DNA of 64,000 bases from a virus: positions 32,001-96,000 of the IMG/VR virus record IMGVR_UViG_3300024520_000050; one strand, written 5' to 3'. The position numbers and the translations under genes are program-made. Of the stretch, positions 7,167-22,692 are shown piece after piece. The notes under the pieces are model-generated. The model had not been told where the DNA came from. It saw nothing but the letters and a program-made list of their open reading frames with translations, and made no database searches. The stretch's first letter is position 1; each line of letters begins with the position of its first letter.

Positions 7167-7865
7167 ATGAAGATTAACGGCTATGATATAACAGCTAAGA
7201 ATGTGTGGGCATACATACAAGGAACTGGGCGCAAAGCACTCAGTGAAAGATATTCAGATATATTTCAATCACCACAACATATCCAAGAGCAGATAGTCTG
7301 GCGCGAAGTGATAGCAAATAAGGAATGTTACACATCAGGAAAGTGTATACATTGTAAATGTAAAATGCCAGACAAGTTATATTCAGATAAAGGATGTGAT
7401 GATGGGTGTTACCCGGAAATAATGAATAGAGATGCATGGAATAACTTCAAACAGTTGTGTGCGCGTAATAAGAGTGATATGTATAATCGTAAGTTCGACT
7501 GGGAAACAGCTCTGGCGGACATGACTAGCTTAGGCCCTGTATCATTTCTATCTCTTATTAGTTCTGATAAAGCAAGCGTGCACCTCGGCGTGGGCCGAGA
7601 AGGTGATATACTCAATCATACATTCGAATTATTCAATCCACATCAAAAGAAACTAACTATAAATCATATACAACCTAGTTGTCATTGTACAACTGCAGTA
7701 CCAAAGTCATATGATATAGAACCTAATGAACATGGTGATATAGATATATTTGTTAATACAAAAGATCTAGAGATAAGAGATCATGAAGTGTGGTTAACAA
7801 TTAGATATAATGATATAGAACGAATTAGCTTACAAATAATTTATACTCTTAAAGAAAAATTATAA
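7167..7865 (+). CDS. Cys-rich Zn-binding domain fused to a DUF1573-like Ig domain
   Basis: GKCIHCKC...GC...CYPEIM...W in the N-half, and FELFNPHQKKLTINHIQPSCHCT (DUF1573 signature) in the C-half. Confidence 0.6.
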   Translation: MKINGYDITAKNVWAYIQGTGRKALSERYSDIFQSPQHIQEQIVWREVIANKECYTSGKCIHCKCKMPDKLYSDKGCDDGCYPEIMNRDAWNNFKQLCARNKSDMYNRKFDWETALADMTSLGPVSFLSLISSDKASVHLGVGREGDILNHTFELFNPHQKKLTINHIQPSCHCTTAVPKSYDIEPNEHGDIDIFVNTKDLEIRDHEVWLTIRYNDIERISLQIIYTLKEKL

Positions 7866-7887
7866 CTAACAACTAACAACTAACTAA

Positions 7888-8631
7888 ATGAAAAAGAAAT
7901 TTTACATGGATACTGAGTTCCATGAATATCAAAAAGATACTACATTACTAAAGGATGCAATTAATTCATCAAGTGTACATCAAACATTAATTGATACAAT
8001 TGAATTAATATCAATTGGTATTATAGATGAAGACGGAAATGAATACTATGCAATATCTAATGAATTTGATATAGATGATGCATGGAATAATGAATGGTTA
8101 AGAGATAATGTACTTAAGAATTTATTTGATAGTAAGATATCAGGTAATAAAACAAGTAGAGAATCAATGACTATTAAGAACTTTAAATCTTATATACTTT
8201 GTTGTGGTAAATCTAAATATCAAATAAGAGAAGAAATTAAATCATTTTGTGTAAATGGAGATTATACTGATGTGAAAAAGAGAATGGATGAAGGTTTAGA
8301 AACTATAGAACCTATTCCAGTTAATGATTACGAATTCTATGCCTACTATGGTGATTACGATTGGGTTGTATTCTGTTGGTTATTCGGAAGAATGATTGAC
8401 TTACCTAAAGGATTCCCAATGTATTGTAAAGATCTCAAGCAATTATTAGATGGTAAAGCAGAACTATTAAAAAAGAAAATATCTAATAGATTCTCTAAAG
8501 GTTTAGATTTTGATGAAGTATTATTTATTAAATCATTACATAATTATCCAACACAAGATAATCTCCATAATGCATTAGATGATGCTAAATGGAATAAAAA
8601 ATTACATGAATTTTTAAATGAATTGCAATGA
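7888..8631 (+). CDS. DEDDh 3'-5' exoribonuclease (Rv2179c/DUF5051-like)
   Basis: MDTEF, ELISIGII, YYGDYDWV and HNALDDAKW motifs. Confidence 0.85.
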   Translation: MKKKFYMDTEFHEYQKDTTLLKDAINSSSVHQTLIDTIELISIGIIDEDGNEYYAISNEFDIDDAWNNEWLRDNVLKNLFDSKISGNKTSRESMTIKNFKSYILCCGKSKYQIREEIKSFCVNGDYTDVKKRMDEGLETIEPIPVNDYEFYAYYGDYDWVVFCWLFGRMIDLPKGFPMYCKDLKQLLDGKAELLKKKISNRFSKGLDFDEVLFIKSLHNYPTQDNLHNALDDAKWNKKLHEFLNELQ

Positions 8632-8789
8632 TGAAATGGATCAAACAATTATTCTGTAAACACAATTATGAGAAAACATATAGTATTCATGGAGATATGA
8701 TTATTATGACAGGATATAAAAGAAGTGTATGGAGATGCACTAAATGTAAAAAACATAAATTTAGTAACTATTTAAATAAATTAAAATGA
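8628..8789 (+). CDS. 53-aa Zn-ribbon protein (DUF1660-like)
   Basis: MMKWIKQLFCKHNY...WRCTKCKKHK, with ATGA overlaps at both ends. Not in the ORF track. Confidence 0.75.
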   Translation: MMKWIKQLFCKHNYEKTYSIHGDMIIMTGYKRSVWRCTKCKKHKFSNYLNKLK

Positions 8790-9133
8790 AACAAGTAAAA
8801 GAAAATGCAGTAGTAGCAAATAACTCACATTCATATTCAGTTAATACATATACAGTTGGCCCTAATGGATTAGAAATAACTGGTGCTCAACCTATTAATT
8901 TAGTACGTGGATCTAAAGTAGATGGTGAAAATATACTTTCTAAACAAGATGGATTCTTAACTGAACAATTACTATGGATTGCACAAAATTATCTATCAGA
9001 AGTAAATGTAGGTGATATGAAGACTAGAGAAACATCAATTGCTATTACTAAGATACAAGAGGCATTAATGTGGATTAATAAGCGTCATGATGATAGAGTA
9101 GAACGTAAGGTGTTAAATACTTATAATAAATAA
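8786..9133 (+). CDS. tad1: Tad1-like immune-signal sponge (anti-Thoeris family)
   Basis: C-terminus DGFLTEQLLWIAQNYL...G...RETSIAITKIQEALMWINKRHDDRVERKVLNTYNK follows the Tad1 signature as I recall it (G-x4-LL-x-I...RE-x3-A-x-T-x3-EALMW-x-N-x-R-x2-DR-x-ER-x-VL-x-T). The N-terminal HxY is also present. Confidence 0.75.
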   Translation: MKQVKENAVVANNSHSYSVNTYTVGPNGLEITGAQPINLVRGSKVDGENILSKQDGFLTEQLLWIAQNYLSEVNVGDMKTRETSIAITKIQEALMWINKRHDDRVERKVLNTYNK

Positions 9134-9579
9134 TGATAAATAAGAAACATAAGCAAAGCATTCGTAAGTTATTAAGTGGTACTAATCTTGATCACTGGAG
9201 TTTAGCATTACAGATATTAACTGGTCAACTTAGTCGAGATAACGCTGAATCAATGATACTACAGTATATTATTAATATACATAATTATAAGATTGAGAGT
9301 AAAATGACAAGTAGTATTAGAACTTGGATTAAAGAGAAAATAATTAATGAGAAATTAATTAATTATTTCAATAGAACCTTTAAATACATAACTGGATTAC
9401 GTGAGCAATTAACAAATGGTCATACTGTACAACATAACGGAGTTCTTACATTATGTCAACTTGAAGACTGGTTTGACTCTATTATTACATCACGCAAACA
9501 AAAAAGTATTACATTGTCATGTGGAAAAGAAATAGCAGAACTATTTGATGAACTAATAAAAGAAGAAATAAATGTATAA
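9133..9579 (+). CDS. Chimeric protein carrying a 56-aa copy of an internal MCP segment
   Basis: Residues 88-143 align to MCP 314-372 with 29 identities (hand alignment, one 3-aa gap). Confidence 0.85.
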   Translation: MINKKHKQSIRKLLSGTNLDHWSLALQILTGQLSRDNAESMILQYIINIHNYKIESKMTSSIRTWIKEKIINEKLINYFNRTFKYITGLREQLTNGHTVQHNGVLTLCQLEDWFDSIITSRKQKSITLSCGKEIAELFDELIKEEINV

Positions 9580-9620: not shown

Positions 9621-10538
9621 ATGAAGAAAGGAGAGACTGGATCGAACGTAAAGGATCTACAATATAAATTAAAGAAAGTATTAAATCGTAATATATCAAT
9701 TGATGGTGATTATGGTAATACAACAAAACAAGCAGTTTGGGATTTTCAAGGATTATATAATCTATATGTAGATGGTGTAGCAGGAGAGAAAACAATGGCT
9801 GTATTAAATAGAGCATATAATGCCTTACATAAAGAAAATAGTAACTTACTTAATCTTGGAAAGAAACGATTTGTTATCTTTGTTGATGCTGGTCATGGCG
9901 GTATTAATGATAATGGCAACTATACAACATCCGGAAAACGTGCATACCATAATGGACGTGAACTACATGAACGTGGACACTACTATGAAGGTTATGAGAA
10001 TAGAATAGTTGCAGAAGCATTTATAGAAGCTTGCATGAATAAAGGAATCATGTGTATTCGCACATATCATCCATCCAAAGATACATCTCTTTCGTATCGT
10101 ACTGATTTAATTAGATCATATCTACGTAGAGGATATTATGGATATATGCATTCATTTCATTCTAATGCTATTGCATCATCTAACTCACAAAGTAAAATGG
10201 AAGCAACCAAAGGTTATATGGTATTTAATACTAGAGGAGATACATTTTCAGATGATATAGCTACTATACATTATAATAATGTTAAGGATGAAATAGGAGA
10301 AGGTAACTGGAATTTTAGAGTACAAAAACAAGATGATGGAGATATCGATTTTGAAGTCAATTTCCAAATGTTAAGGGAAACAGATTTAAATGAATTCGAA
10401 AACTTTGGTGCAATACTAGATGAATGGGGATTTCATACATCTGGTGAAGACTGTCAATTTATATTAGACAGTAGAGAACAACGAATAAACGCATGTCTTA
10501 AGACAGCACAATGGGTAAAACAAAAATTAAATAACTAA
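9621..10538 (+). CDS. Endolysin: PG-binding domain + N-acetylmuramoyl-L-alanine amidase (Amidase_3)
   Basis: VKDLQYKL...IDGDYGNTTKQAVWDFQ...VDGVAG (PG_binding_1). Zn and catalytic residues in DAGHGG, YEN, SFHSNA and LDEWGF. Confidence 0.9.
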   Translation: MKKGETGSNVKDLQYKLKKVLNRNISIDGDYGNTTKQAVWDFQGLYNLYVDGVAGEKTMAVLNRAYNALHKENSNLLNLGKKRFVIFVDAGHGGINDNGNYTTSGKRAYHNGRELHERGHYYEGYENRIVAEAFIEACMNKGIMCIRTYHPSKDTSLSYRTDLIRSYLRRGYYGYMHSFHSNAIASSNSQSKMEATKGYMVFNTRGDTFSDDIATIHYNNVKDEIGEGNWNFRVQKQDDGDIDFEVNFQMLRETDLNEFENFGAILDEWGFHTSGEDCQFILDSREQRINACLKTAQWVKQKLNN

Positions 10539-11116: not shown

Positions 11117-11140
11117 TAACTAATAACTAACTAAAATAAT

Positions 11141-11818: not shown

Positions 11819-14284
11819 ATGTATAAAACCAAACAAGACTTAAAGAATATACAATTAGAATATGATAAAGGTGTTTTACTTCCAACAGCAAAAGAGAAGT
11901 TGATAATTAATCCTAAGATAGCATATGAGGTAACTAATATTGATGTTAAACAATCAATACCTGAACATGCTATATTAAAAAGGATTGAACCTGTATATGG
12001 TATAATCAGTGACTTCTCTAAAGAATATACTCCGGTAGATAATCTATTGTGGGACTATTTATATTTTACTGATTCTAAATTATTCGCACCTGCAGGAGAA
12101 GCATTCATGAAAAGTCTTAATGCTACTAAAGGTAAGACTGGGTTAAAACCAACATATACTAAACACTTACCCGGAACAACAGCATACAACAGATTCTGGG
12201 AAGAAGAGTTCCTTCGTATAACAAAAGGATATGAACCAGAAATAGATGGTAAACCTTGTGGTATTAAGATACCTGGTGAGTTTTATTTTTATCTGAATTA
12301 TGGTTGGATGCAAAAAGTAGAGTTCAATGATAAAGGAGAAGTAATAAGTGATAAGTCAGGTGTTCCTGATTTTCTATCGATGGATTATTACTTCTATAAA
12401 GAATTAGAAGCTAGAGAAAATCCTGCTAAATATAATCTACCTTTTGAATATAAACAATCTATGTCAATTACTAAGTCTCGTCGTAAAGGATTTAGTTATA
12501 AAGCAGGGTCAGGAGCAGTATGGTGTACAGCATTTAGAGACAAAGCAAAAGTCCTTATTGCGTCAGCTCAAGGAAAAGATGCTACCTTGTGCTTTCAGAA
12601 AGCAATGGATATTATTGATCATATAACATTATATACTCCTTTTGGTAGAAAGAATCCAGGACATCCAAGTTCTAATGGAGGTTGGAAGCATATGACAATG
12701 AGTCAAACTAAGGATCATGGCGAGTTTGTTTTCGGGTTAATTAATACTCGTACAAGAATGAAGAAAGGAAGACGTAGTGAAATAGTTACAGCGTCTTTAT
12801 TTAATAAACCAGATGCTGCTTCTGGTGAAGGTCTTACAAGACTATATATAGAGGAAGCAGGAAAGATATCTAATTTAGCTGATGCATGGGTATTCTCATT
12901 AGAATCAATGCGTGTAGGTTCTGTATATCGTTCAGGGATTGCAGTAATATTTGGAACTGGTGGATCTATGGTATCTGCTTCAGGGAAGAAAGGTTCATCG
13001 CAAGATTTTGCTAATATGAATGATAGACCTGAATCAGTAGGATTAGCTGCATTTAAAAACATATATGAATATAAACCTACACAACGTAAATGTGGTTTCT
13101 TTGTATCTGATATGTGGGCTAACTTTGGTTCTAAGATAACCATAGATGGTAAAGTGCATTATGGTTTAGATAAAAATGGTAATGCATGTTTTTGGGTTGC
13201 TGAATTAGCATTAAATAAAGAACGTGCAGGTAAACGACCACCATTAGGTAAGAAAAGAATATTTGATAAATTCCTTACACAACGTTGTAAAACCCCAGCA
13301 GAAGCATTTCTTATTACAACTGGTAGTCGATTTCAAACTGAAGATCTTGTTGAACGTAAGACTAAAATAGCTATATCACGAGGAGGATTTGAATCATTAC
13401 GGATGCCAGGTGAATTAGTAGACATAGATGGTCGAGTAGAGTTTATACCTAAACCTCATGAAGAACCATTATTAAATACATATAATGAAGCAGAAAGAGA
13501 AGGTTGCTTCTTAAGATATGAACCACCATTAAAATTAGGTGGATCAATACCAGATGATGCATATATTATTTCAGTGGATCCAATTGGTATTAATACAGAT
13601 ACAGGTGGATCATTGACGGCTATTATTGTATTTAAGACAAGAAAGTATGAATCATGGTTAGGTCCTGAAAAGATTGTAGGTATTTACTTTGGTCGTAAGA
13701 AACTTAATCCACAAGGATATGTACATAGATTATTACTTAAATTATCTAAATATTATAATGCTAAGATAACTATAGAGAATGATAGAGATGGTGGTATACC
13801 TCAATACTTTATTCGTAAAGGAGAAGCTGCTAGATTAATGGGACCTCCTATTACTACAATGGAGAAGATTATGCCAGGTAGTAAAACATCACGTAGACCG
13901 TATGGTCATTCAATGTCAACAGTTCGACATAAACAAATTGGAGAAGATTTATTATATGAATGGTTAGATTTACGTGGATCTAATATAACTTATTATGATG
14001 AAGAAGATGGTGAAAAGACTATTGAATCAGGATTACGTAATATAGATAGATTAGAAGATCAACTACTAATTGAACAATTAATTAAGTACGAACGTGGTGG
14101 TAACTACGATTTAGTTATGGCAATGATGGGAATTGTAGTTCAATTAAAAGAATGGTACGATCCAGAAGATACAGATCCATATGAAGAAAATAGTATATCA
14201 GATCAACTTAATAAATGGAAAGTAAAACGATTTGGCTCATATGAAGACAAATTAAAATATAACAAAAGAAAATTTAAACGATAA
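11819..14284 (+). CDS. terL: Terminase large subunit
   Basis: Walker A-like TKSRRKGFSY, Walker B LYIEEAG, RNase H-like IISVDPIG and YDLVMA. Confidence 0.93.
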   Translation: MYKTKQDLKNIQLEYDKGVLLPTAKEKLIINPKIAYEVTNIDVKQSIPEHAILKRIEPVYGIISDFSKEYTPVDNLLWDYLYFTDSKLFAPAGEAFMKSLNATKGKTGLKPTYTKHLPGTTAYNRFWEEEFLRITKGYEPEIDGKPCGIKIPGEFYFYLNYGWMQKVEFNDKGEVISDKSGVPDFLSMDYYFYKELEARENPAKYNLPFEYKQSMSITKSRRKGFSYKAGSGAVWCTAFRDKAKVLIASAQGKDATLCFQKAMDIIDHITLYTPFGRKNPGHPSSNGGWKHMTMSQTKDHGEFVFGLINTRTRMKKGRRSEIVTASLFNKPDAASGEGLTRLYIEEAGKISNLADAWVFSLESMRVGSVYRSGIAVIFGTGGSMVSASGKKGSSQDFANMNDRPESVGLAAFKNIYEYKPTQRKCGFFVSDMWANFGSKITIDGKVHYGLDKNGNACFWVAELALNKERAGKRPPLGKKRIFDKFLTQRCKTPAEAFLITTGSRFQTEDLVERKTKIAISRGGFESLRMPGELVDIDGRVEFIPKPHEEPLLNTYNEAEREGCFLRYEPPLKLGGSIPDDAYIISVDPIGINTDTGGSLTAIIVFKTRKYESWLGPEKIVGIYFGRKKLNPQGYVHRLLLKLSKYYNAKITIENDRDGGIPQYFIRKGEAARLMGPPITTMEKIMPGSKTSRRPYGHSMSTVRHKQIGEDLLYEWLDLRGSNITYYDEEDGEKTIESGLRNIDRLEDQLLIEQLIKYERGGNYDLVMAMMGIVVQLKEWYDPEDTDPYEENSISDQLNKWKVKRFGSYEDKLKYNKRKFKR

Positions 14285-17062: not shown

Positions 17063-18625
17063 ATGCATAAAACAACAAGTACAATATTAACTGGAGTTAA
17101 TCTTCTGGTTGATACTGTTAAACAAACACTAGGAACAAAAGGTCGTACTATTTTATTTAATGATGAGAACAATAGAACTCACATTACTAAAGATGGTGTG
17201 ACTGTTGCTCGTCATATCTTTTCAGAAGATGATTATGAGAATATGATAATTACTGTATTACGTGAAGCATCACTTAAGACTATGAAGTCAAGTGGAGACG
17301 GCACTACAACAACAATGATACTTGCTCAATATATTATTAATGAAGGACTTAAATTACTTGATGAAGGATTAAGTTTTTATGAAATGAGTCGTCAAGTTGA
17401 TGAAGCTGTCAAAGATGTAGTAGATTATATTAATAATACTTCAATTAAAATAGAAGATAATCAAGAATTACTTCGTGAAATTGCAGCTATTTCTTCTAAC
17501 GATGAAAAGCTTGGAGATTACATTTATTCAATCATAGAAGAGATTGGATTATATGGAGATATTGAAGTTAAAGAATCTCAATACTCTGAAACTCGTAAGA
17601 TTCAAACTAAAGGAATGAAGTTACATAAAGGTTGGATGGAGAACTTTATGATGAATGATCCACGTGAATTAAAATTTAAAGCAAATGATTGCCATATTCT
17701 TATTATTGATGATATCATTCAAGCTATTACTGATATTGATCAGTATATTAGACACCTTAATGGAAAACCGTTGGTAGTATTCTGTGATGAGGTTACAGAT
17801 ATTACATTATCCCAAATTCAAAAATGGATGAGTACTACAGGTTATCCTGCATGTTTCGTCCACAATGATGGACACGGAGAACGTAAACAAATATTAATGA
17901 ATGATCTTGCTGCATTAACATCAGCATATGTTATTTCTGCACAAGATCCATTTGATCCTGATAATTTAGGATTCACTGGACAGATACAAGTTGGTGAATG
18001 GCATACATCTATATTAGATGGTGAAAGTGATACGGATATGATTGAAGCTATTACATATGATATTCAAGAAATATTAAATGATGATGCAAATGATGATGAA
18101 ACATTAATTACTAATGTAGATCGTAAGTTTCATAAAAAACGCTTAGCTAATTTAACAGGTGGATTAGCAGTAATTCATGTGGGTGGACGTACACAAATGG
18201 AGATGAAAGAATTGAAGGATAGATTTGATGATGCTGTATTGGCTGTAGGAAGTGCTATTAAACAAGGAGTTAATGTTGGGGGTGGTTCTACTTATATTAA
18301 CTGTCAGAAGATACTAAATAAAAGATATAAGGAATCTAAAGGTAGAGGATATAAATTAATTATAGATTCACTTGATTCCCCATTCAAACAATTATTAACT
18401 AATGCTGATCTATCTAGTCAATTTGGATTTTATAAGAATCAACTTACTAAAGGTAAAGCATTAGATCTTCGTGATAATAAATTATATAACCTTGCAACAA
18501 CAAAATATACAGTGTATGATCCATCATCTGTATTGATTGATTCGTTAATTAATGCAACTGCTGTAGCAAAATCATTACTATCTATAAAAGATGTACTTTT
18601 TGATGGAAAGAAACTAGGCGGTTAG
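17063..18625 (+). CDS. groEL: Phage-encoded group I chaperonin (GroEL-like)
   Basis: TLGTKGR, ITKDGVTVA, GDGTTT, RLANLTGGLAVIHVGG, EMKELKDRFDDAV and GGG. No GGM tail. Confidence 0.95.
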   Translation: MHKTTSTILTGVNLLVDTVKQTLGTKGRTILFNDENNRTHITKDGVTVARHIFSEDDYENMIITVLREASLKTMKSSGDGTTTTMILAQYIINEGLKLLDEGLSFYEMSRQVDEAVKDVVDYINNTSIKIEDNQELLREIAAISSNDEKLGDYIYSIIEEIGLYGDIEVKESQYSETRKIQTKGMKLHKGWMENFMMNDPRELKFKANDCHILIIDDIIQAITDIDQYIRHLNGKPLVVFCDEVTDITLSQIQKWMSTTGYPACFVHNDGHGERKQILMNDLAALTSAYVISAQDPFDPDNLGFTGQIQVGEWHTSILDGESDTDMIEAITYDIQEILNDDANDDETLITNVDRKFHKKRLANLTGGLAVIHVGGRTQMEMKELKDRFDDAVLAVGSAIKQGVNVGGGSTYINCQKILNKRYKESKGRGYKLIIDSLDSPFKQLLTNADLSSQFGFYKNQLTKGKALDLRDNKLYNLATTKYTVYDPSSVLIDSLINATAVAKSLLSIKDVLFDGKKLGG

Positions 18626-18700
18626 GCTTAGTATTAATGATTAAAGAACAATTATTTAAATAAAACAGATTATATTAACAACTAAATTATTAAATTACAA

Positions 18701-19912
18701 ATGAGTGATTATAACATTCCCGAAGCGGAATTAAACTTTAGTAGCTTTACTATTGATGATATTTCAAAAACAGTAAATGCTGCCCAGGCAGATGTTACAA
18801 AAGATAACACACCTGAAGAGGAAGAAGAAACAGTAGAAACGAATCAACCTATAAATGTTCTTACACAAGACGATATACGTACTGTCACTAAAAGTGAAGA
18901 AGATGAAACAATAGAAACAGAAGTTACACCAGAATCAGAAACTACTACTGAAAATGCAGAAGTAGAACCAGAAGGTAAAGCATCTTATGCAGATGAAGTA
19001 TATTCTGCAGCAATTCAATTAGCTAAAGAGAATGGTTTATTGAATATTCCAGAAGAAATGGAAGGTGAAATGACTGATGAAGTTTGGCAAGATCTTTTAC
19101 AAAAGAATGAAGTAGAACGTCAACAACGAACTATAAATAATATTCGCAATAATGCCAAAGATCCTAAAATTGTTGAACTCCTTGATTATGTTATGAACGG
19201 AGGTGGATGGTATGGATTTAATGAAATGCAAGATACTATTCAAGAAGAGATTGACATTACATCATTAGATGAAAGTAAAGAAGAAGATCAACGTTATTTA
19301 ATTGAGTTATATTTAAGTGATGGTTTGGATGCAACAAATCCAGCTCATATACGTAGATTACAAAATATCGATAACGAAGTTAATACTGCTTTTGATAGAC
19401 TTGAAAATGATGCATTATCCAAAGAAGCTAAAAATTATCTATTAGATAAAAATACAAAAGCTAAACAATATATTGCAGACCAACAACAATTACATCAAGC
19501 TCAACAACAAGAGGAAGTCAATCGTCAAGCAGCAGCTAGACAGAATTGGAATAATCAATTCAAAACTACTCTAAATGATCGTAACTGGTCACAGGATAAA
19601 AAGAATAATATTGTAAGTCAATTTGATATTGTTCAATTGGATAACGGAGCAGAGATGGAAATGTGGCAATATAAGTTTGATGCTATTTGGAGAGATCCTG
19701 CAGCAACTCAAATATTCATGGATTTCTTATCAGACTTTGATCCTAGCGCATTACAATTTAAAAAACAAGGACAAACTATTAATAAGCAAGTTACTTCAAC
19801 CATAAAGAACTTGATTAATAAAAAAGCTCAGACCAGCTCAAAAGGTCAACATGTTTCGAAACGTAGAGTCGCTGGAAAGCAATTACCAAAGATCGATCCA
19901 AACAACTTTTAA
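18701..19912 (+). CDS. Putative scaffolding/head assembly protein
   Basis: Acidic disordered N-terminus, helical body, immediately upstream of MCP as in crAss-like head modules. Confidence 0.55.
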   Translation: MSDYNIPEAELNFSSFTIDDISKTVNAAQADVTKDNTPEEEEETVETNQPINVLTQDDIRTVTKSEEDETIETEVTPESETTTENAEVEPEGKASYADEVYSAAIQLAKENGLLNIPEEMEGEMTDEVWQDLLQKNEVERQQRTINNIRNNAKDPKIVELLDYVMNGGGWYGFNEMQDTIQEEIDITSLDESKEEDQRYLIELYLSDGLDATNPAHIRRLQNIDNEVNTAFDRLENDALSKEAKNYLLDKNTKAKQYIADQQQLHQAQQQEEVNRQAAARQNWNNQFKTTLNDRNWSQDKKNNIVSQFDIVQLDNGAEMEMWQYKFDAIWRDPAATQIFMDFLSDFDPSALQFKKQGQTINKQVTSTIKNLINKKAQTSSKGQHVSKRRVAGKQLPKIDPNNF

Positions 19913-19959
19913 AAAAATTTAATTTTTTATATTAACAATCAACAAAACATTTAAAACAA

Positions 19960-21561
19960 ATGTCAGTAAAAAACTTTGAGAATGCTAAAGCGATCCATAA
20001 TGGACAACTTCGTCCAACTGTATTAACAGATGGCCTTTTAGCAACTGGTGAGATTACTGGTCTACACTTAAGCCAAGCTTTCGGTAGTACTGAAAATCTT
20101 GCGACAATTAATATGGGTTATGCACAAATCTTTAGTGCAACTAACCGATATCACAGCAAGCCTATCCTTGGAATGACTGAGGCTAAAGGTAAAGTAAAAA
20201 CAATTAATCGTAGAGGTTTCCGTTGGGAACTATCTGGAGGTAACACACAAAAAGCTCGTATTACACGTGTTGTTTGTACTGATGCTCGTCCAGGTCTACA
20301 TTTACAAACTTTTGATATCGTAGTTGATAAGCCATGGTTTAACGTATCTGATATTATTATTCCTCAGAATAATAAACGTCAATGTCGTGTAAGTACTTTT
20401 GGTAACGGTCAATCACGTAGACATCATCAAGTAGGACCTAACGCTTATCGTTATACTATTCAATACATTACTAATAACGGTAATGAATTCTTACCCGCCA
20501 AGTATATCCAAGAAGGACAAGAATGGTGTAAAGTTTCTAGTGCTGTAGGTGATGAAGATAACATCGATGCTGGTGGATTCCAATTCTACTCAATCTTCGA
20601 AAGTGAAGGTCAAATCCAACAACATGCAATTAAGGTAGAAGTATCTGATAAAGCTGCTCGTCGTGCGAAACAAGCACAAAAAGATGGTAGTGATACAGAT
20701 GAATTCGGTAAATATCTTAAGATGTTATGGGTTAAGTATGAAGACAAAGTAACAGGTGAACCAATGCACCGTTTCATGGCTTTATTAGATGCAGAAGCAT
20801 ATAATGAGTTATACCAAAACGTTGAATGGACATTAATCTTCGGTAAGACATCTAATAACATGGTGACACCAGAAGGACATCAAATCTTAACTGCTTCAGG
20901 ATTACGTCAACAATTAGAATCAGGTTATACACTTGAGCATAATGGTACATTATCTTTAGAAGAATTAGAAGACTGGTTTGATTCAATTATGAAAGACAAA
21001 CTTTCAGAAGGTGAGCAAAAAATCGTTTTATCTGCCGGTCGTGAATTCCGTAAGATGTTCGATAAGATGATCAAAGTAGATGCTAGAGCATTTACAACTA
21101 TTGATACATTATTCCTTCGTAAAGGAGACAACTTCCGTCATATGGATTTTGGTTCTTACTTTGCATCTTATAAAGGTTTCACAGTTGATATTTCTGTAAT
21201 GGAAAATCCAGCTTACGATAATCAATACTACTGCCCACAAATGCACCCAGTGCGTACAGAGGTTTGTATCGATTCATGGAGAGCTGATATCTTGGACTTC
21301 GGATCAAGTAAACAACAAGGAACTGGAGGAGAAACAGATAATATCTGTATGATTCAAGAGTCATACTGTGACTACAATATCACTTACAACGGTAAATGGT
21401 ATGGAGCACATGATGGTAAATCAGGTCAACCAATCACAGATGGTGGTTTAGGACAAGGTGGTGGAGTCTCAGGATATTCTATCCTAAGAGAGAAATCAGC
21501 TGGACTTATGGTTGCTGATGTAACTCGTTGTGGATCAATCTTCTTATCTTTTGACGATTAA
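19960..21561 (+). CDS. Major capsid protein (HK97 fold, crAss-like)
   Basis: 533 aa, position in the head module, Lys/Arg- and Gly-balanced codon usage (CGT, GGT) typical of a highly expressed gene, and motifs QIQQHAIK and GLRQQL..G..L.HNG. Confidence 0.88.
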   Translation: MSVKNFENAKAIHNGQLRPTVLTDGLLATGEITGLHLSQAFGSTENLATINMGYAQIFSATNRYHSKPILGMTEAKGKVKTINRRGFRWELSGGNTQKARITRVVCTDARPGLHLQTFDIVVDKPWFNVSDIIIPQNNKRQCRVSTFGNGQSRRHHQVGPNAYRYTIQYITNNGNEFLPAKYIQEGQEWCKVSSAVGDEDNIDAGGFQFYSIFESEGQIQQHAIKVEVSDKAARRAKQAQKDGSDTDEFGKYLKMLWVKYEDKVTGEPMHRFMALLDAEAYNELYQNVEWTLIFGKTSNNMVTPEGHQILTASGLRQQLESGYTLEHNGTLSLEELEDWFDSIMKDKLSEGEQKIVLSAGREFRKMFDKMIKVDARAFTTIDTLFLRKGDNFRHMDFGSYFASYKGFTVDISVMENPAYDNQYYCPQMHPVRTEVCIDSWRADILDFGSSKQQGTGGETDNICMIQESYCDYNITYNGKWYGAHDGKSGQPITDGGLGQGGGVSGYSILREKSAGLMVADVTRCGSIFLSFDD

Positions 21562-21606
21562 TCAAAAGAAATAAATACATTTTTATAACTTATTAACTAA
21601 CTTAAA

Positions 21607-22692
21607 ATGACTACATATATTCAAAACGATACTAGAAAAATTAGAATCGAACCAAATCCTTTTAGAAGTCAAGGTAACAAATTTAAAATGAAGACTAGGA
21701 AACTCAGTGGCGGACAGCCAGTTGTAAACATACATGGTAAACCTGTGTATACGGATACAACTCCTGAAGCATTATATAGAGTTCCTGGTACGAGTAAAAG
21801 ATTAGCTGCCGCAAGATCAAGTACAAATTCTTTGAGAACTGGCTTAGATCATCTTGTAGATAATCCGTATAAAAACTTAACGACTTATACACAAGAATGG
21901 GAAACTATATTAAAGGGAAAAGACGAAGTTTTACTGCAACACCTATTAGAATATGAATGTGATTATGAAATTAATTTCTTAACACACCGTGTTCAACCAG
22001 GAGCAATTGAATCTGATAAGGTTGATAGAAAATTCTTTGAATCTGTTGAATCAAAACCGAGATTAGATGGAGGTGTGAGCTTCTTAAATATGTCTAATCC
22101 AATACATAGAGTAAATTATTATACTCTATTAGCTCACAAGGCCGTAGCTAATACTTATGAGGAACTTCTTGATGGAGGGAATCTAGATGCTGAATGGTAC
22201 ATCGTAGACGAACAAGCTAAACACGTACGTGAAAAGTCTAAATCTATGAGAGTTGTAGAAGCAGGAGCCGCATTGAAAGAATTATCAGATAGTAATTCTG
22301 ATGCAATGCTTCAAATGGCTAAAGCTTTAGAACTATCAGAAGCAACTGATCGTAATCTTACAGTCGATAGAGCATGGAATGCAATATATACTTATTATAA
22401 TAAAAGTGCATCAAATTTTGATCAATTCATAGTTGTTTATAAATTATGGAAAGATCCAAATAACGGTAGAGATAAATTCGTCGCAATGGCTGATTTATTC
22501 AATTACCAACACCAAGGGTTAGTAAGTTATAAAAATGGAAAATACACATGGTTTAAAACTATTCCAGGAGAACCTACACAAACTTTCATGTTTACTGGTA
22601 AAATGGCGTTCATTACTGAATTCCTATTAGCACCACAACAACAAGAGAATGTAGAATTTCTTCAGGATGAATATGAAAACAAAATTAAATAA
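21607..22692 (+). CDS. Conserved post-MCP protein (crAss-like head module)
   Basis: Position and size match the gene that follows MCP in crAss-like phages. Confidence 0.55.
   Translation: MTTYIQNDTRKIRIEPNPFRSQGNKFKMKTRKLSGGQPVVNIHGKPVYTDTTPEALYRVPGTSKRLAAARSSTNSLRTGLDHLVDNPYKNLTTYTQEWETILKGKDEVLLQHLLEYECDYEINFLTHRVQPGAIESDKVDRKFFESVESKPRLDGGVSFLNMSNPIHRVNYYTLLAHKAVANTYEELLDGGNLDAEWYIVDEQAKHVREKSKSMRVVEAGAALKELSDSNSDAMLQMAKALELSEATDRNLTVDRAWNAIYTYYNKSASNFDQFIVVYKLWKDPNNGRDKFVAMADLFNYQHQGLVSYKNGKYTWFKTIPGEPTQTFMFTGKMAFITEFLLAPQQQENVEFLQDEYENKIK

What the first reader, a model, noticed from the sequence alone, without database searches (positions are those of the whole stretch)
7888..9579. Candidate two-layer counter-defence operon: RNase + Zn finger + signal sponge + capsid decoy
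Four genes are chained by ATGA/TAATG overlaps (8628/8631, 8786/8789, 9133): a DEDDh exoribonuclease, a 53-aa Zn ribbon, a Tad1-like sponge and the MCP-fragment protein, placed just before the endolysin/terminase/head genes. Established: Tad1 sequesters Thoeris (and some CBASS) signals, and capsid proteins trigger several defences (CapRel-SJ46, Lit via the T4 gp23 Gol peptide, a staphylococcal Thoeris). Inference: the phage co-expresses, ahead of MCP, a decoy for the sensor and a sponge for the second messenger. I know of no description of such a pairing.
Basis: partly seen in the sequence, partly recalled or inferred. Interest (0 to 1): 0.85.

Follow-up and report, generated by a model that had tools for sequence, protein, structure and literature searches.

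The report
Tad1 sponge beside capsid-excerpt protein
A marine crAss-like phage keeps, in one swappable gene slot, a true Tad1 immune-signal sponge next to a small protein that joins a helical carrier domain to a copied piece of the phage's own capsid protein; relatives put other capsid pieces on the same carrier, a design with no published description that I found, whose purpose (decoy or assembly control) is untested.

Summary
The four translationally coupled ORFs exist. They encode an Rv2179c-like DEDDh exonuclease, a 53-aa Cys/His mini-protein, a true Tad1 homologue (PDB 7UAV, E 5e-11) and a 148-aa protein. Residues 87-143 of that protein are 50% identical to residues 313-372 of the phage's own major capsid protein (MCP; E 5e-18).

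The four genes are not a dedicated operon. Together they fill a hypervariable slot between a conserved DUF1573 gene and the endolysin.

The new result concerns the 148-aa protein. It is an about 85-residue helical carrier domain plus an MCP excerpt. Relatives fuse the same carrier to two other MCP pieces: the C-terminal strand (E 5e-6 and 2e-6) and residues 54-86 (E 3e-8). One relative has about seven carrier paralogs in tandem next to its DNA polymerase gene.

Tad1 and a carrier-excerpt gene are neighbours in this phage and in two closely related seawater relatives. Tad1 also occurs alone (Cellulophaga phage phi17:2), and carrier genes occur elsewhere, so the pairing recurs but is not obligatory.

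A decoy function is possible but untested. The excerpt evolves faster (dN/dS 0.34-1.1) than the carrier (0.12-0.32).

This scan has already noted the same design, with other carrier domains, in T4-like and jumbo phages.

The parts
7167..7865 (+). Conserved left border of the island: a protein with a Cys-rich N-terminal part and a DUF1573 Ig-like part.
   Evidence: Pfam PF07610 at 6e-10. It is 47-56% identical in ten related loci.
7864..7884 (+). AACTAAC-repeat leader in front of the first island gene.
   Evidence: Two overlapping exact copies lie here and one copy with one mismatch lies at 11118-11131, before the next conserved gene. The count is not above shuffled controls, so its function is unknown.
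7888..8631 (+). Rv2179c-like DEDDh 3'-5' exonuclease (247 aa).
   Evidence: PHROG 2259 at 3e-46. PDB 4OKE and 6S0M at 1.3e-14. Pfam PF16473 gives 22 bits, below its cut-off of 27. D8, E10, D158, H227 and D232 are readable in the sequence. Orthologues at 45% identity lie in L006 and L022.
8628..8789 (+). 53-aa Cys/His mini-protein (C-x-H ... C-x2-C), a putative zinc ribbon of unknown function.
   Evidence: PHROG 7696 at 4.6e-8, a family of unknown function. Proteins with the same pattern lie in the L006 and L022 islands; they gave no tblastn match.
8786..9133 (+). Tad1-family sponge homologue (115 aa).
   Evidence: Solved Tad1 chains at about 5e-11. PF24729 at 27.8 bits against a cut-off of 27. 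Matches the annotated Tad1 of phage SBSphiJ7. Mapped by eye from the alignment: R81 and T88 match the cyclic-trinucleotide residues R90 and T97 of CbTad1. R100 and R104 match pocket residues R109 and R113, while F82 becomes V73 and N92 becomes T83 (residue roles from the paper read).
9133..9390 (+). Carrier domain (residues 1-86) of the 148-aa protein: five helices of helical-repeat type.
   Evidence: AlphaFold2 pLDDT 84-93. Homologous to the N-terminal part of P0029 (E 2e-10) and to the L019 paralogs. dN/dS 0.12-0.32.
9391..9579 (+). MCP excerpt (residues 87-148): a copy of the helix-strand-helix stretch at MCP 313-372.
   Evidence: BLASTP E 5e-18 at 50% identity. Nucleotide identity is 57% and synonymous sites are saturated. 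It keeps the MCP consensus residue at 18 of 26 MCP-conserved columns against 11 of 38 variable ones (P 0.002). pLDDT is 41-56 when folded alone. dN/dS 0.34-1.1.
9621..10538 (+). Right border of the island: endolysin (PG_binding_1 plus Amidase_3).
   Evidence: Pfam. It is 63-88% identical in L002, L010, L013, L014, L016 and L017.
19960..21561 (+). Major capsid protein (533 aa), the source of the excerpt; residues 313-372 are encoded at 20896-21075.
   Evidence: PHROG 11589 at 5e-29. Aligns to the crAss001 MCP gp32 (7QOF) at E 0.0019.

Best explanation
The four genes fill a hypervariable accessory slot that lies between two conserved late genes in an uncultured seawater crAss-like phage. The host is probably a member of the Bacteroidota.

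One gene is a genuine Tad1-family sponge. By homology it should sequester cyclic-trinucleotide signals, and probably gcADPR or cyclic-dinucleotide signals as well.

The 148-aa protein belongs to a modular family: an about 85-residue helical carrier domain fused to an excerpt of the phage's own MCP. Different members of the family carry three different conserved MCP pieces.

I think it most likely works by mimicry. The displayed excerpt would occupy whatever normally binds that stretch of unassembled MCP, and the carrier would hold or block that partner.
- The partner is more likely a host factor, such as a capsid-sensing defence protein, than the phage's own assembly machinery.
- The action is probably independent of Tad1 and not a coupled second layer.
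- The exonuclease and the Cys/His mini-protein are co-resident accessory genes with no assigned role.

Shown here: the homologies, the modular architecture, the variability of the island and the selection on the carrier. Inferred: the mimicry, the partner and any anti-defence role.
For: Tad1: with residue roles from the paper read.

Modular family:
- MCP 313-372 is carried by the window protein and by P0003, P0004, P0005, P0020, P0021 and P0028.
- The MCP C-terminal stretch 510-528 sits on the homologous carrier in L006 and L022.
- MCP 54-86 sits on a carrier paralog in L019.
- L019 holds a tandem array of about seven carrier paralogs.

Accessory nature: the slot between the DUF1573 gene and the endolysin ranges from about 0.4 to 2.5 kb with changing content, and several relatives lack these genes.

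Co-residence with Tad1 in this phage and in two closely related relatives.

The excerpt keeps MCP-conserved residues (P 0.002) although synonymous sites are saturated.

The excerpt is predicted to be disordered on its own while the carrier is confidently folded, which fits folding on a partner.

From the literature: capsid proteins trigger several defence systems (review read), and protein fragments can inhibit by titrating native partners (papers listed).
Against: - No experiment or expression data exists for this protein.
- The excerpt is less constrained than the carrier. Its dN/dS is 0.34-0.56 in four pairs and about 1.1 in two.
- From general knowledge of the HK97 fold, the copied pieces look like core elements of the A-domain and the N-terminal region, not exposed surfaces. 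That fits a folded-capsid sensor poorly.
- A faithful mimic of a trigger might activate a sensor instead of blocking it.
- In this window the gene lies among late genes, which suits an assembly role equally well.
- Only this phage and one pair of closely related relatives (L006 and L022, 79-92% identical in five compared proteins) show adjacency to Tad1, and they may have inherited the island from a common ancestor.
- An earlier follow-up in this scan on the same design in another phage later priced the mimicry reading at only 13 in 100.
Confidence: 0.4

Rival explanations
1. The operon is a coupled two-layer counter-defence unit: the MCP-excerpt protein decoys a capsid sensor such as Thoeris ThsB or a CBASS cyclase, and Tad1 mops up the signal that leaks through.
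For: Tad1 and a carrier-excerpt gene are direct neighbours in this window, in L006 and in L022, even though the gene order and the MCP piece differ. In L010, Tad1 lies two genes upstream of a carrier-less 78-aa protein that resembles MCP 326-380. Capsid-triggered Thoeris and CBASS are reported in the review read.
Against: Tad1 occupies the slot without any carrier in phi17:2. Carrier-excerpt genes lie next to the DNA polymerase gene in L019 with no Tad1 in the 3.7 kb held. In L002 the two upstream genes are not Tad1. Too few independent lineages are known for a statistical association. No host defence system is known for this phage.
Confidence: 0.12
2. An assembly modulator. The excerpt binds the phage's own MCP or its folding machinery, which includes a phage GroEL. 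It would act as a chaperone, a timing brake or a dominant-negative regulator of head assembly, possibly aimed at competing related phages.
For: The gene lies among late genes, just upstream of the endolysin, terminase, portal, GroEL and MCP genes. Fragments of a protein often bind that protein's native partners (papers listed). The excerpt is disordered when modelled alone. All three copied pieces are conserved MCP blocks.
Against: The gene is missing from several close relatives that keep the same head genes, so it is not a core assembly factor. In L019 the family lies beside replication genes. Expansion into tandem arrays is more typical of arms-race genes.
Confidence: 0.18
3. A capsid-address tag. 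The MCP-like tail docks the carrier protein into the procapsid so that it is packaged and injected, like T4 internal proteins or encapsulin cargo peptides.
For: The excerpts sit at the C-terminal end of a common domain, as cargo-targeting peptides do. Paralogs with the carrier motif are numerous among the genes on the phage's minus-strand arm. Earlier scan notes name the T4 capsid targeting sequence as a close analogue.
Against: No virion proteomics exists. The excerpts are copies of MCP itself and not of a scaffold-binding motif. Three different pieces would need three different docking sites.
Confidence: 0.1
4. No mimicry. The MCP-like stretch is the remnant of an old recombination that now serves only as an ordinary structural part of a small protein with an unrelated function, or is decaying.
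For: The tail has dN/dS near 1 in two of six pairs. The family is rare, with 10 hits among 1.84 billion representative proteins.
Against: Three independent MCP pieces sit on one carrier. The ORFs are intact in at least seven homologues at 31-65% identity. MCP-conserved residues are preferentially kept (P 0.002).
Confidence: 0.2

Closest known systems
Tad1 (Thoeris anti-defence 1): CbTad1, CmTad1 and SBS Tad1; PDB 7UAV and the 8KB* entries
   Same: Full-length sequence homology (E 5e-11). The hairpin motif of PF24729 is present. The cyclic-trinucleotide residues (R81, T88), the hexamer-interface Met-Trp...Lys motif and two pocket arginines (R100, R104) are conserved.
   Different: The host range differs: a marine crAss-like phage, not a phage of Firmicutes. 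Two pocket residues differ (F82 to V73, N92 to T83), so the gcADPR and cyclic-dinucleotide specificity is uncertain. Binding has not been tested.
Bodo saltans virus ankyrin-repeat proteins fused to fragments of essential viral genes (Deeg et al. 2018, PMC5871332)
   Same: A helical-repeat carrier, expanded in tandem, is fused to fragments of the virus's own essential proteins. The authors proposed a decoy role.
   Different: That virus is a giant virus of a eukaryote. Its carrier is an ankyrin repeat, its fragments lie at the 5' end and they come from polymerase and MutS. Here the virus is a phage, the carrier is a different helical domain, and the C-terminal fragments come from the capsid protein. 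Neither case has been tested.
Gol peptide of T4 gp23 in the Lit / EF-Tu exclusion system
   Same: A short internal stretch of a major capsid protein is what a defence system recognises (from my own knowledge, and named in earlier scan notes).
   Different: The free Gol peptide activates the defence. Here a blocking role is only proposed, and no Lit-like system is known for this host.
Engineered dominant-negative protein fragments (preprints 10.1101/2022.01.04.474984 and 10.1101/2023.12.19.572389, FragFold)
   Same: Fragments of a protein inhibit by occupying the native binding sites of the parent protein.
   Different: Those fragments are laboratory constructs. This is a natural gene, conserved across relatives, with a dedicated carrier domain.
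Capsid and portal excerpt mini-proteins noted earlier in this scan in T4-like and jumbo phages (e1-4035658, e1-5690048, e1-5725004, e1-5759298)
   Same: The design is the same: one shared small module joined to different conserved pieces of the phage's own virion proteins.
   Different: The carriers there are SH3-like barrels or short tags. Here the carrier is an about 85-residue helical domain in a crAss-like lineage, which implies convergence. Those notes are unpublished AI notes.
Rv2179c 3'-5' exoribonuclease (PDB 4OKE)
   Same: Sequence homology at E 1.3e-14 and a complete set of DEDDh residues.
   Different: The phage protein is about 80 residues longer because of insertions. Its substrate and role in the phage are unknown.

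Membership tests
Tad1 (Thoeris anti-defence 1 sponge) | Sequence homology to experimentally characterised Tad1 proteins over most of the length | tested here: met
   phmmer against PDB: 7UAV and the 8KB* chains at about 5e-11, query residues 22-114. tblastn hits the annotated Tad1 of SBSphiJ7 at 2e-5.
Tad1 (Thoeris anti-defence 1 sponge) | Acb2/Tad1 hairpin domain (Pfam PF24729) at or above the gathering score | tested here: met
   27.8 bits against a cut-off of 27, E 3e-6. This is only just above the threshold.
Tad1 (Thoeris anti-defence 1 sponge) | Cyclic-trinucleotide site residues (CbTad1 R90 and T97) and hexamer-interface residues | tested here: met
   The alignment, read by eye with PDB numbering shifted by one, maps them to R81 and T88. 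The Met-Trp...Lys motif is kept as M95, W96 and K99. Oligomeric state itself was not tested.
Tad1 (Thoeris anti-defence 1 sponge) | gcADPR and cyclic-dinucleotide pocket residues (CbTad1 F82, N92, R109, R113) | tested here: inconclusive
   R100 and R104 are conserved and invariant in the clade. F82 maps to V73 and N92 to T83.
Tad1 (Thoeris anti-defence 1 sponge) | Binds and sequesters immune signals and rescues the phage from Thoeris or CBASS | not testable with these tools
   Needs binding assays (ITC or native gel) and plaque assays.
Rv2179c-like DEDDh 3'-5' exoribonuclease (PF16473) | Homology to Rv2179c plus the DEDDh catalytic residues | tested here: met
   PDB 4OKE at 1.3e-14 and PHROG 2259 at 3e-46. 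D8, E10, D158, H227 and D232 are read from the translation. The Pfam score of 22 bits is below the cut-off of 27.
HK97-fold major capsid protein | A complete HK97 fold (N-arm, E-loop, P-domain and A-domain) | tested here: not met
   Only residues 87-143 of the 148-aa protein match the MCP, at MCP 313-372. The rest is an unrelated helical domain. The protein is an excerpt, not a capsid protein.
Carrier-plus-own-protein-excerpt fusions (the Bodo saltans virus ankyrin type; proposed decoys) | One carrier domain shared by paralogs or orthologues that carry different fragments of an essential viral protein | tested here: met
   Carrier homology at E 2e-10 and HMM hits at 1e-33 to 1e-43. Three distinct MCP pieces are supported at E 5e-18, 5e-6 and 2e-6, and 3e-8.
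Carrier-plus-own-protein-excerpt fusions (the Bodo saltans virus ankyrin type; proposed decoys) | The excerpt binds and diverts a host or viral factor that targets the parent protein | not testable with these tools
   No host, no known partner and no expression data.
Dedicated four-gene operon | Its own promoter and terminator, and conserved gene content and order in relatives | tested here: not met
   No signal above shuffled controls. Content and order vary among thirteen related loci.

The most novel reading that the evidence does not exclude
Phages of unrelated lineages have convergently evolved 'excerpt-display' proteins. This crAss-like group uses a helical carrier; T4-like and jumbo phages use other carriers. 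Each protein presents the most conserved, least mutable pieces of the capsid protein in order to blind capsid-sensing bacterial immunity. In this lineage the genes sit in the same anti-defence island as the signal sponge Tad1, so the phage would counter both the sensing step and the signalling step.
Probability: 0.15. Interest if true: 0.9.

Novelty: new variant of a known kind. Interest (0 to 1): 0.7.

Why it matters
Capsid proteins are among the commonest triggers of bacterial immunity. In my literature searches I found no phage-encoded protein described as copying pieces of the trigger itself.

One carrier domain that displays three different conserved capsid pieces, kept intact across diverged phages and housed beside a proven class of anti-defence gene, gives a concrete and testable candidate for trigger mimicry. 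If it turns out to act on assembly, it would be a natural fragment-based regulator of head assembly.

The result also extends Tad1 to marine crAss-like phages of Bacteroidota. It marks the slot between the DUF1573 gene and the endolysin as a hot spot where new accessory genes of this abundant phage group can be harvested.

Tried and rejected
- Complex prediction of the MCP with the 148-aa protein gave no verdict (score 0.00 against a mark of 0.32; three earlier tries failed because the machine was busy). This is no evidence either way.
- AlphaFold2 of the MCP from a 7-row alignment was too poor to use (mean pLDDT 38.5). I could not place the excerpts in a 3D model, so their domain positions rest on the alignment to 7QOF and on general knowledge of the HK97 fold.
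- Foldseek against PDB and VIA-align wide (best Z 7.4, below the noise level for helical repeats) gave no specific relative for the carrier domain. The ESM Atlas gave nothing usable.
- tblastn of the 148-aa protein against 50,697 phage records found no match.
- The search for related loci with the protein or its alignment found no confirmed relative in viral contigs or metagenome contigs. An alignment that included the most distant members was too diverse to search with.
- Whole records of L006, L009 and L010 are not held, so I could not pair their excerpts with their own MCP.
- The 149-aa gene in L009 and the 147-aa gene in L010, first suspected as homologues because of their size and position, are unrelated. 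The L009 gene looks like a GIY-YIG endonuclease by eye.
- A carrier paralog next to the DNA polymerase gene in this genome has a tail that resembles the terminase stretch at residues 204-235 (pairwise E 0.002). This lies within the genome-wide background of matches between small and large proteins (rank 21), so I rejected it as evidence.
- Pfam gave nothing for ten carrier-family paralogs.
- No RNA holder was listed among public runs; the DNA is held only by seawater metagenomes.
- The sigma-70 promoter and terminator scan found nothing above shuffled controls.
- The weak similarity between residues 37-67 of the carrier and MCP 161-191 (E 0.045) was not supported further.
Full report
**1. The observation**

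ORFs 7888-8631, 8628-8789, 8786-9133 and 9133-9579 exist on the + strand. They are chained by ATGA, ATGA and TAATG overlaps that can be read directly in the sequence.

Downstream lie an endolysin (PG_binding_1 plus Amidase_3), two unknown genes, the large terminase, the portal, a phage GroEL and the major capsid protein (MCP) at 19960-21561.

The window is bases 32001-96000 of a 178.4-kb virus record that is rated complete. Its DNA is held only by seawater metagenomes.

Its MCP aligns weakly to the crAss001 MCP gp32 (7QOF, E 0.0019). It is about 21% identical to the MCPs of gut crAss-like phages and of Flavobacterium phage FpV4. This is therefore a distant marine crAss-like phage, and its host is probably a member of the Bacteroidota.

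**2. The four proteins**

- *The 247-aa protein* is an Rv2179c-like DEDDh exonuclease. It matches PHROG 2259 at 3e-46 and solved Rv2179c at 1.3e-14. D8, E10, D158, H227 and D232 are in place. The Pfam score is below the cut-off.
- *The 53-aa protein* has a C-x-H ... C-x2-C pattern and matches only families of unknown function.
- *The 115-aa protein* is a Tad1 homologue.
  - It matches solved Tad1 chains at about 5e-11 over nearly its full length, reaches the PF24729 gathering score and hits the annotated Tad1 of SBSphiJ7.
  - I mapped residues by eye, using the residue roles given by Li et al. (preprint 10.1101/2023.11.15.567273) and the alignment.
  - The cyclic-trinucleotide residues R90 and T97 correspond to R81 and T88. 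The hexamer-interface Met-Trp...Lys motif is kept. The pocket arginines R109 and R113 correspond to R100 and R104, which are invariant in the clade. F82 and N92 are replaced by V73 and T83.
- *The 148-aa protein*: residues 87-143 are 50% identical to MCP 313-372 (E 5e-18).
  - Nucleotide identity is 57% and synonymous sites are saturated, so the copy is old.

**3. The genes fill a variable slot and are not an operon**

I used the conserved DUF1573 gene (7167-7865) as an anchor, together with Tad1 and homologues of the 148-aa protein, and collected thirteen related loci.

The interval between the DUF1573 gene and the endolysin (or the next conserved gene) ranges from about 0.4 to about 2.5 kb and has changing content:

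| Locus | Content of the slot |
|---|---|
| L013, L014, L016, L017, L015 | Three unrelated small genes |
| L012 | One 136-aa gene |
| L011 | Four genes, no Tad1 |
| L010 | Tad1, then four small genes |
| L006 and L022 | Seven genes, including the exonuclease, a Cys/His mini-protein and Tad1 |
| Cellulophaga phage phi17:2 | A DUF1573-like gene, Tad1 and a 64-aa gene; a 177-aa gene then precedes the terminase |

Tad1 is thus an old resident of this slot, and the other genes come and go. No promoter or terminator signal brackets the four genes.

**4. The main new result: a carrier domain with exchangeable MCP excerpts**

AlphaFold2 models residues 1-85 of the 148-aa protein as five confident helices (pLDDT 84-93). 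The MCP-like tail is poorly defined (pLDDT 41-56).

Homologues with the same architecture are P0003, P0004, P0005, P0020, P0021 and P0028, at 31-65% identity.

*Second MCP piece.* In the seawater relative L006, the 108-aa gene between the exonuclease and Tad1 has the same carrier domain (E 2e-10; HMM 4e-33). Its tail instead matches the C-terminal stretch of the MCP, residues 510-528 (E 5e-6). The orthologue in L022 keeps this tail (E 2e-6).

*Third MCP piece.* In L019, about seven small ORFs in tandem next to a DNA-polymerase-like gene (a call made by eye from the translation) all begin with the carrier motif. One of them is P0028, which carries the MCP 306-347 piece. Another ends in a copy of MCP 54-86 (E 3e-8).

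The window's own genome has the same arrangement of carrier-motif ORFs beside its DNA polymerase gene, and further weak paralogs on the minus-strand arm upstream of the window. Only the 148-aa protein carries a robust excerpt.

*Shorter proteins.* Proteins of 63-88 aa that lack the carrier but resemble the same helix-strand-helix stretch lie in the slot of L001, L002, L010 and L011. The L010 protein scores 2.6e-5 against an MCP profile; the others are weaker.

**5. Selection**

Whole-gene dN/dS among four homologues is 0.25-0.51. Split by region, the carrier gives 0.12-0.32. The excerpt gives 0.34-0.56 in four pairs and about 1.1 in two.

The excerpt nevertheless keeps the MCP consensus residue at 18 of 26 MCP-conserved columns against 11 of 38 variable ones (Fisher P 0.002). 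This includes the His-Asn-Gly-x-Leu motif, which is invariant in the excerpt family and nearly so in the MCPs (one of seven MCPs has Tyr for His).

The carrier is clearly under purifying selection. The excerpt is held at key positions but is otherwise free or fast-evolving.

**6. Pairing with Tad1**

Tad1 and a carrier-excerpt gene are direct neighbours in this window, in L006 and in L022. L006 and L022 are close relatives (79-92% identical in five compared proteins), so together they count as one independent lineage beside the window.

In L010, Tad1 lies two genes upstream of the carrier-less mini-protein.

Tad1 occurs without a carrier gene in phi17:2. It is followed by a different gene in L009, where the upstream DNA is missing. 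Carrier genes occur away from any Tad1 in L019. In L002 the two genes upstream are not Tad1.

Slots that lack Tad1 also lack carriers (L012 to L017).

The pattern is suggestive. It rests on too few independent lineages, and shared ancestry of the island could explain it.

**7. Mechanism**

The architecture argues that displaying MCP sequence is the point of these proteins. Mimicry of unassembled MCP is therefore my preferred reading (about 0.4).

For a host partner (decoy):
- The gene is dispensable, sits in an island with a proven type of anti-defence gene and has expanded in tandem.
- The copied pieces are the least mutable MCP blocks.
- Capsid proteins are established triggers (review PMC13728456).
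- An analogous decoy idea was proposed for the ankyrin fusions of Bodo saltans virus (PMC5871332).

Against a host partner:
- There are no functional data.
- The pieces look like core and not surface elements.
- A faithful mimic could activate a sensor.
- The tail is only loosely constrained.
- The gene has a late-gene context in this window.

The rival readings are assembly control, a capsid-address tag and a functionless relic. Each is given above with the result that would refute it.

**8. Comparison and novelty**

The Tad1 gene is a new member of a known family in a new phage group.

For the carrier-excerpt family, full-text searches found no description of phage proteins that copy pieces of their own capsid protein. 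The nearest items in print are:
- the ankyrin fusions of Bodo saltans virus (a hypothesis only);
- the T4 Gol peptide (from my own knowledge);
- engineered inhibitory fragments.

Earlier notes of this scan describe the same design with other carriers in T4-like and jumbo phages. The present case is therefore a further and apparently convergent instance, in a crAss-like lineage, with a distinct helical carrier and a Tad1 neighbour.

I rate it a new variant of a known (proposed) kind, of high interest, with its function open.

Noticed in passing
window 17063-18625: A phage-encoded GroEL-type chaperonin (PHROG 5725, 1.8e-104) lies between the portal gene and the MCP gene. This suggests that MCP folding is demanding in this phage.
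   Followed up: no
L019:322-3492 (Logan SRR25180570): About seven small ORFs in tandem all start with the carrier motif and have different tails. They sit next to a DNA-polymerase-like gene. Two of the tails are MCP pieces (306-347 and 54-86).
   Followed up: partly
L020:268-1301 (G000 129267-130300, minus strand) and L021 (G000 18400-21800): The window's own genome has three carrier-motif ORFs just downstream of its DNA polymerase gene. A larger paralogous set of 100-140-aa proteins with a related N-terminal motif lies on the minus-strand arm upstream of the window. Pfam finds nothing in them.
   Followed up: partly
L020:577-930 (minus strand) versus window 11819-14284: The tail of the strict carrier paralog resembles terminase residues 204-235, which by eye look like the Walker-A-type block (pairwise E 0.002). 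The match is not above the genome-wide background.
   Followed up: yes
L010:8747-8980, L001:14-205, L002:318-524, L011:5260-5526: Mini-proteins of 63-88 aa lack the carrier domain but resemble the same MCP helix-strand-helix stretch, with an inserted Gly/Thr-rich or Cys-rich loop. In L001 and L002 they lie directly upstream of the carrier-excerpt gene.
   Followed up: partly
P0010 and P0012 (L006:8001-8351, L022:5083-5433): The Tad1 of the L006/L022 lineage has lost the cyclic-trinucleotide residues and the Met-Trp hexamer motif but keeps the two pocket arginines. It may be a Tad1 variant of narrower specificity.
   Followed up: no
contig of P0014 (Logan SRR12927082; DNA not readable): A Tad1 homologue and a Tad2-like gene (PF11195) lie 1.2 kb apart in another phage. 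This illustrates that sponge genes cluster.
   Followed up: no
L022:8708-12241: The large terminase of this relative is 1177 aa and carries a LAGLIDADG_3 hit, which suggests an intein or homing-endonuclease insertion.
   Followed up: no
window 7864-7884 and 11118-11131: AACTAAC-repeat leaders lie in front of the first island gene and again in front of the conserved 222-aa gene. The count is not above shuffled controls.
   Followed up: partly
L011:4700-5119 and L012:3984-4391: In two relatives the slot holds a 136-139-aa protein with a His-rich helical motif that looks ferritin- or Dps-like by eye. L011 and L002 also carry a small HExxH protein.
   Followed up: no
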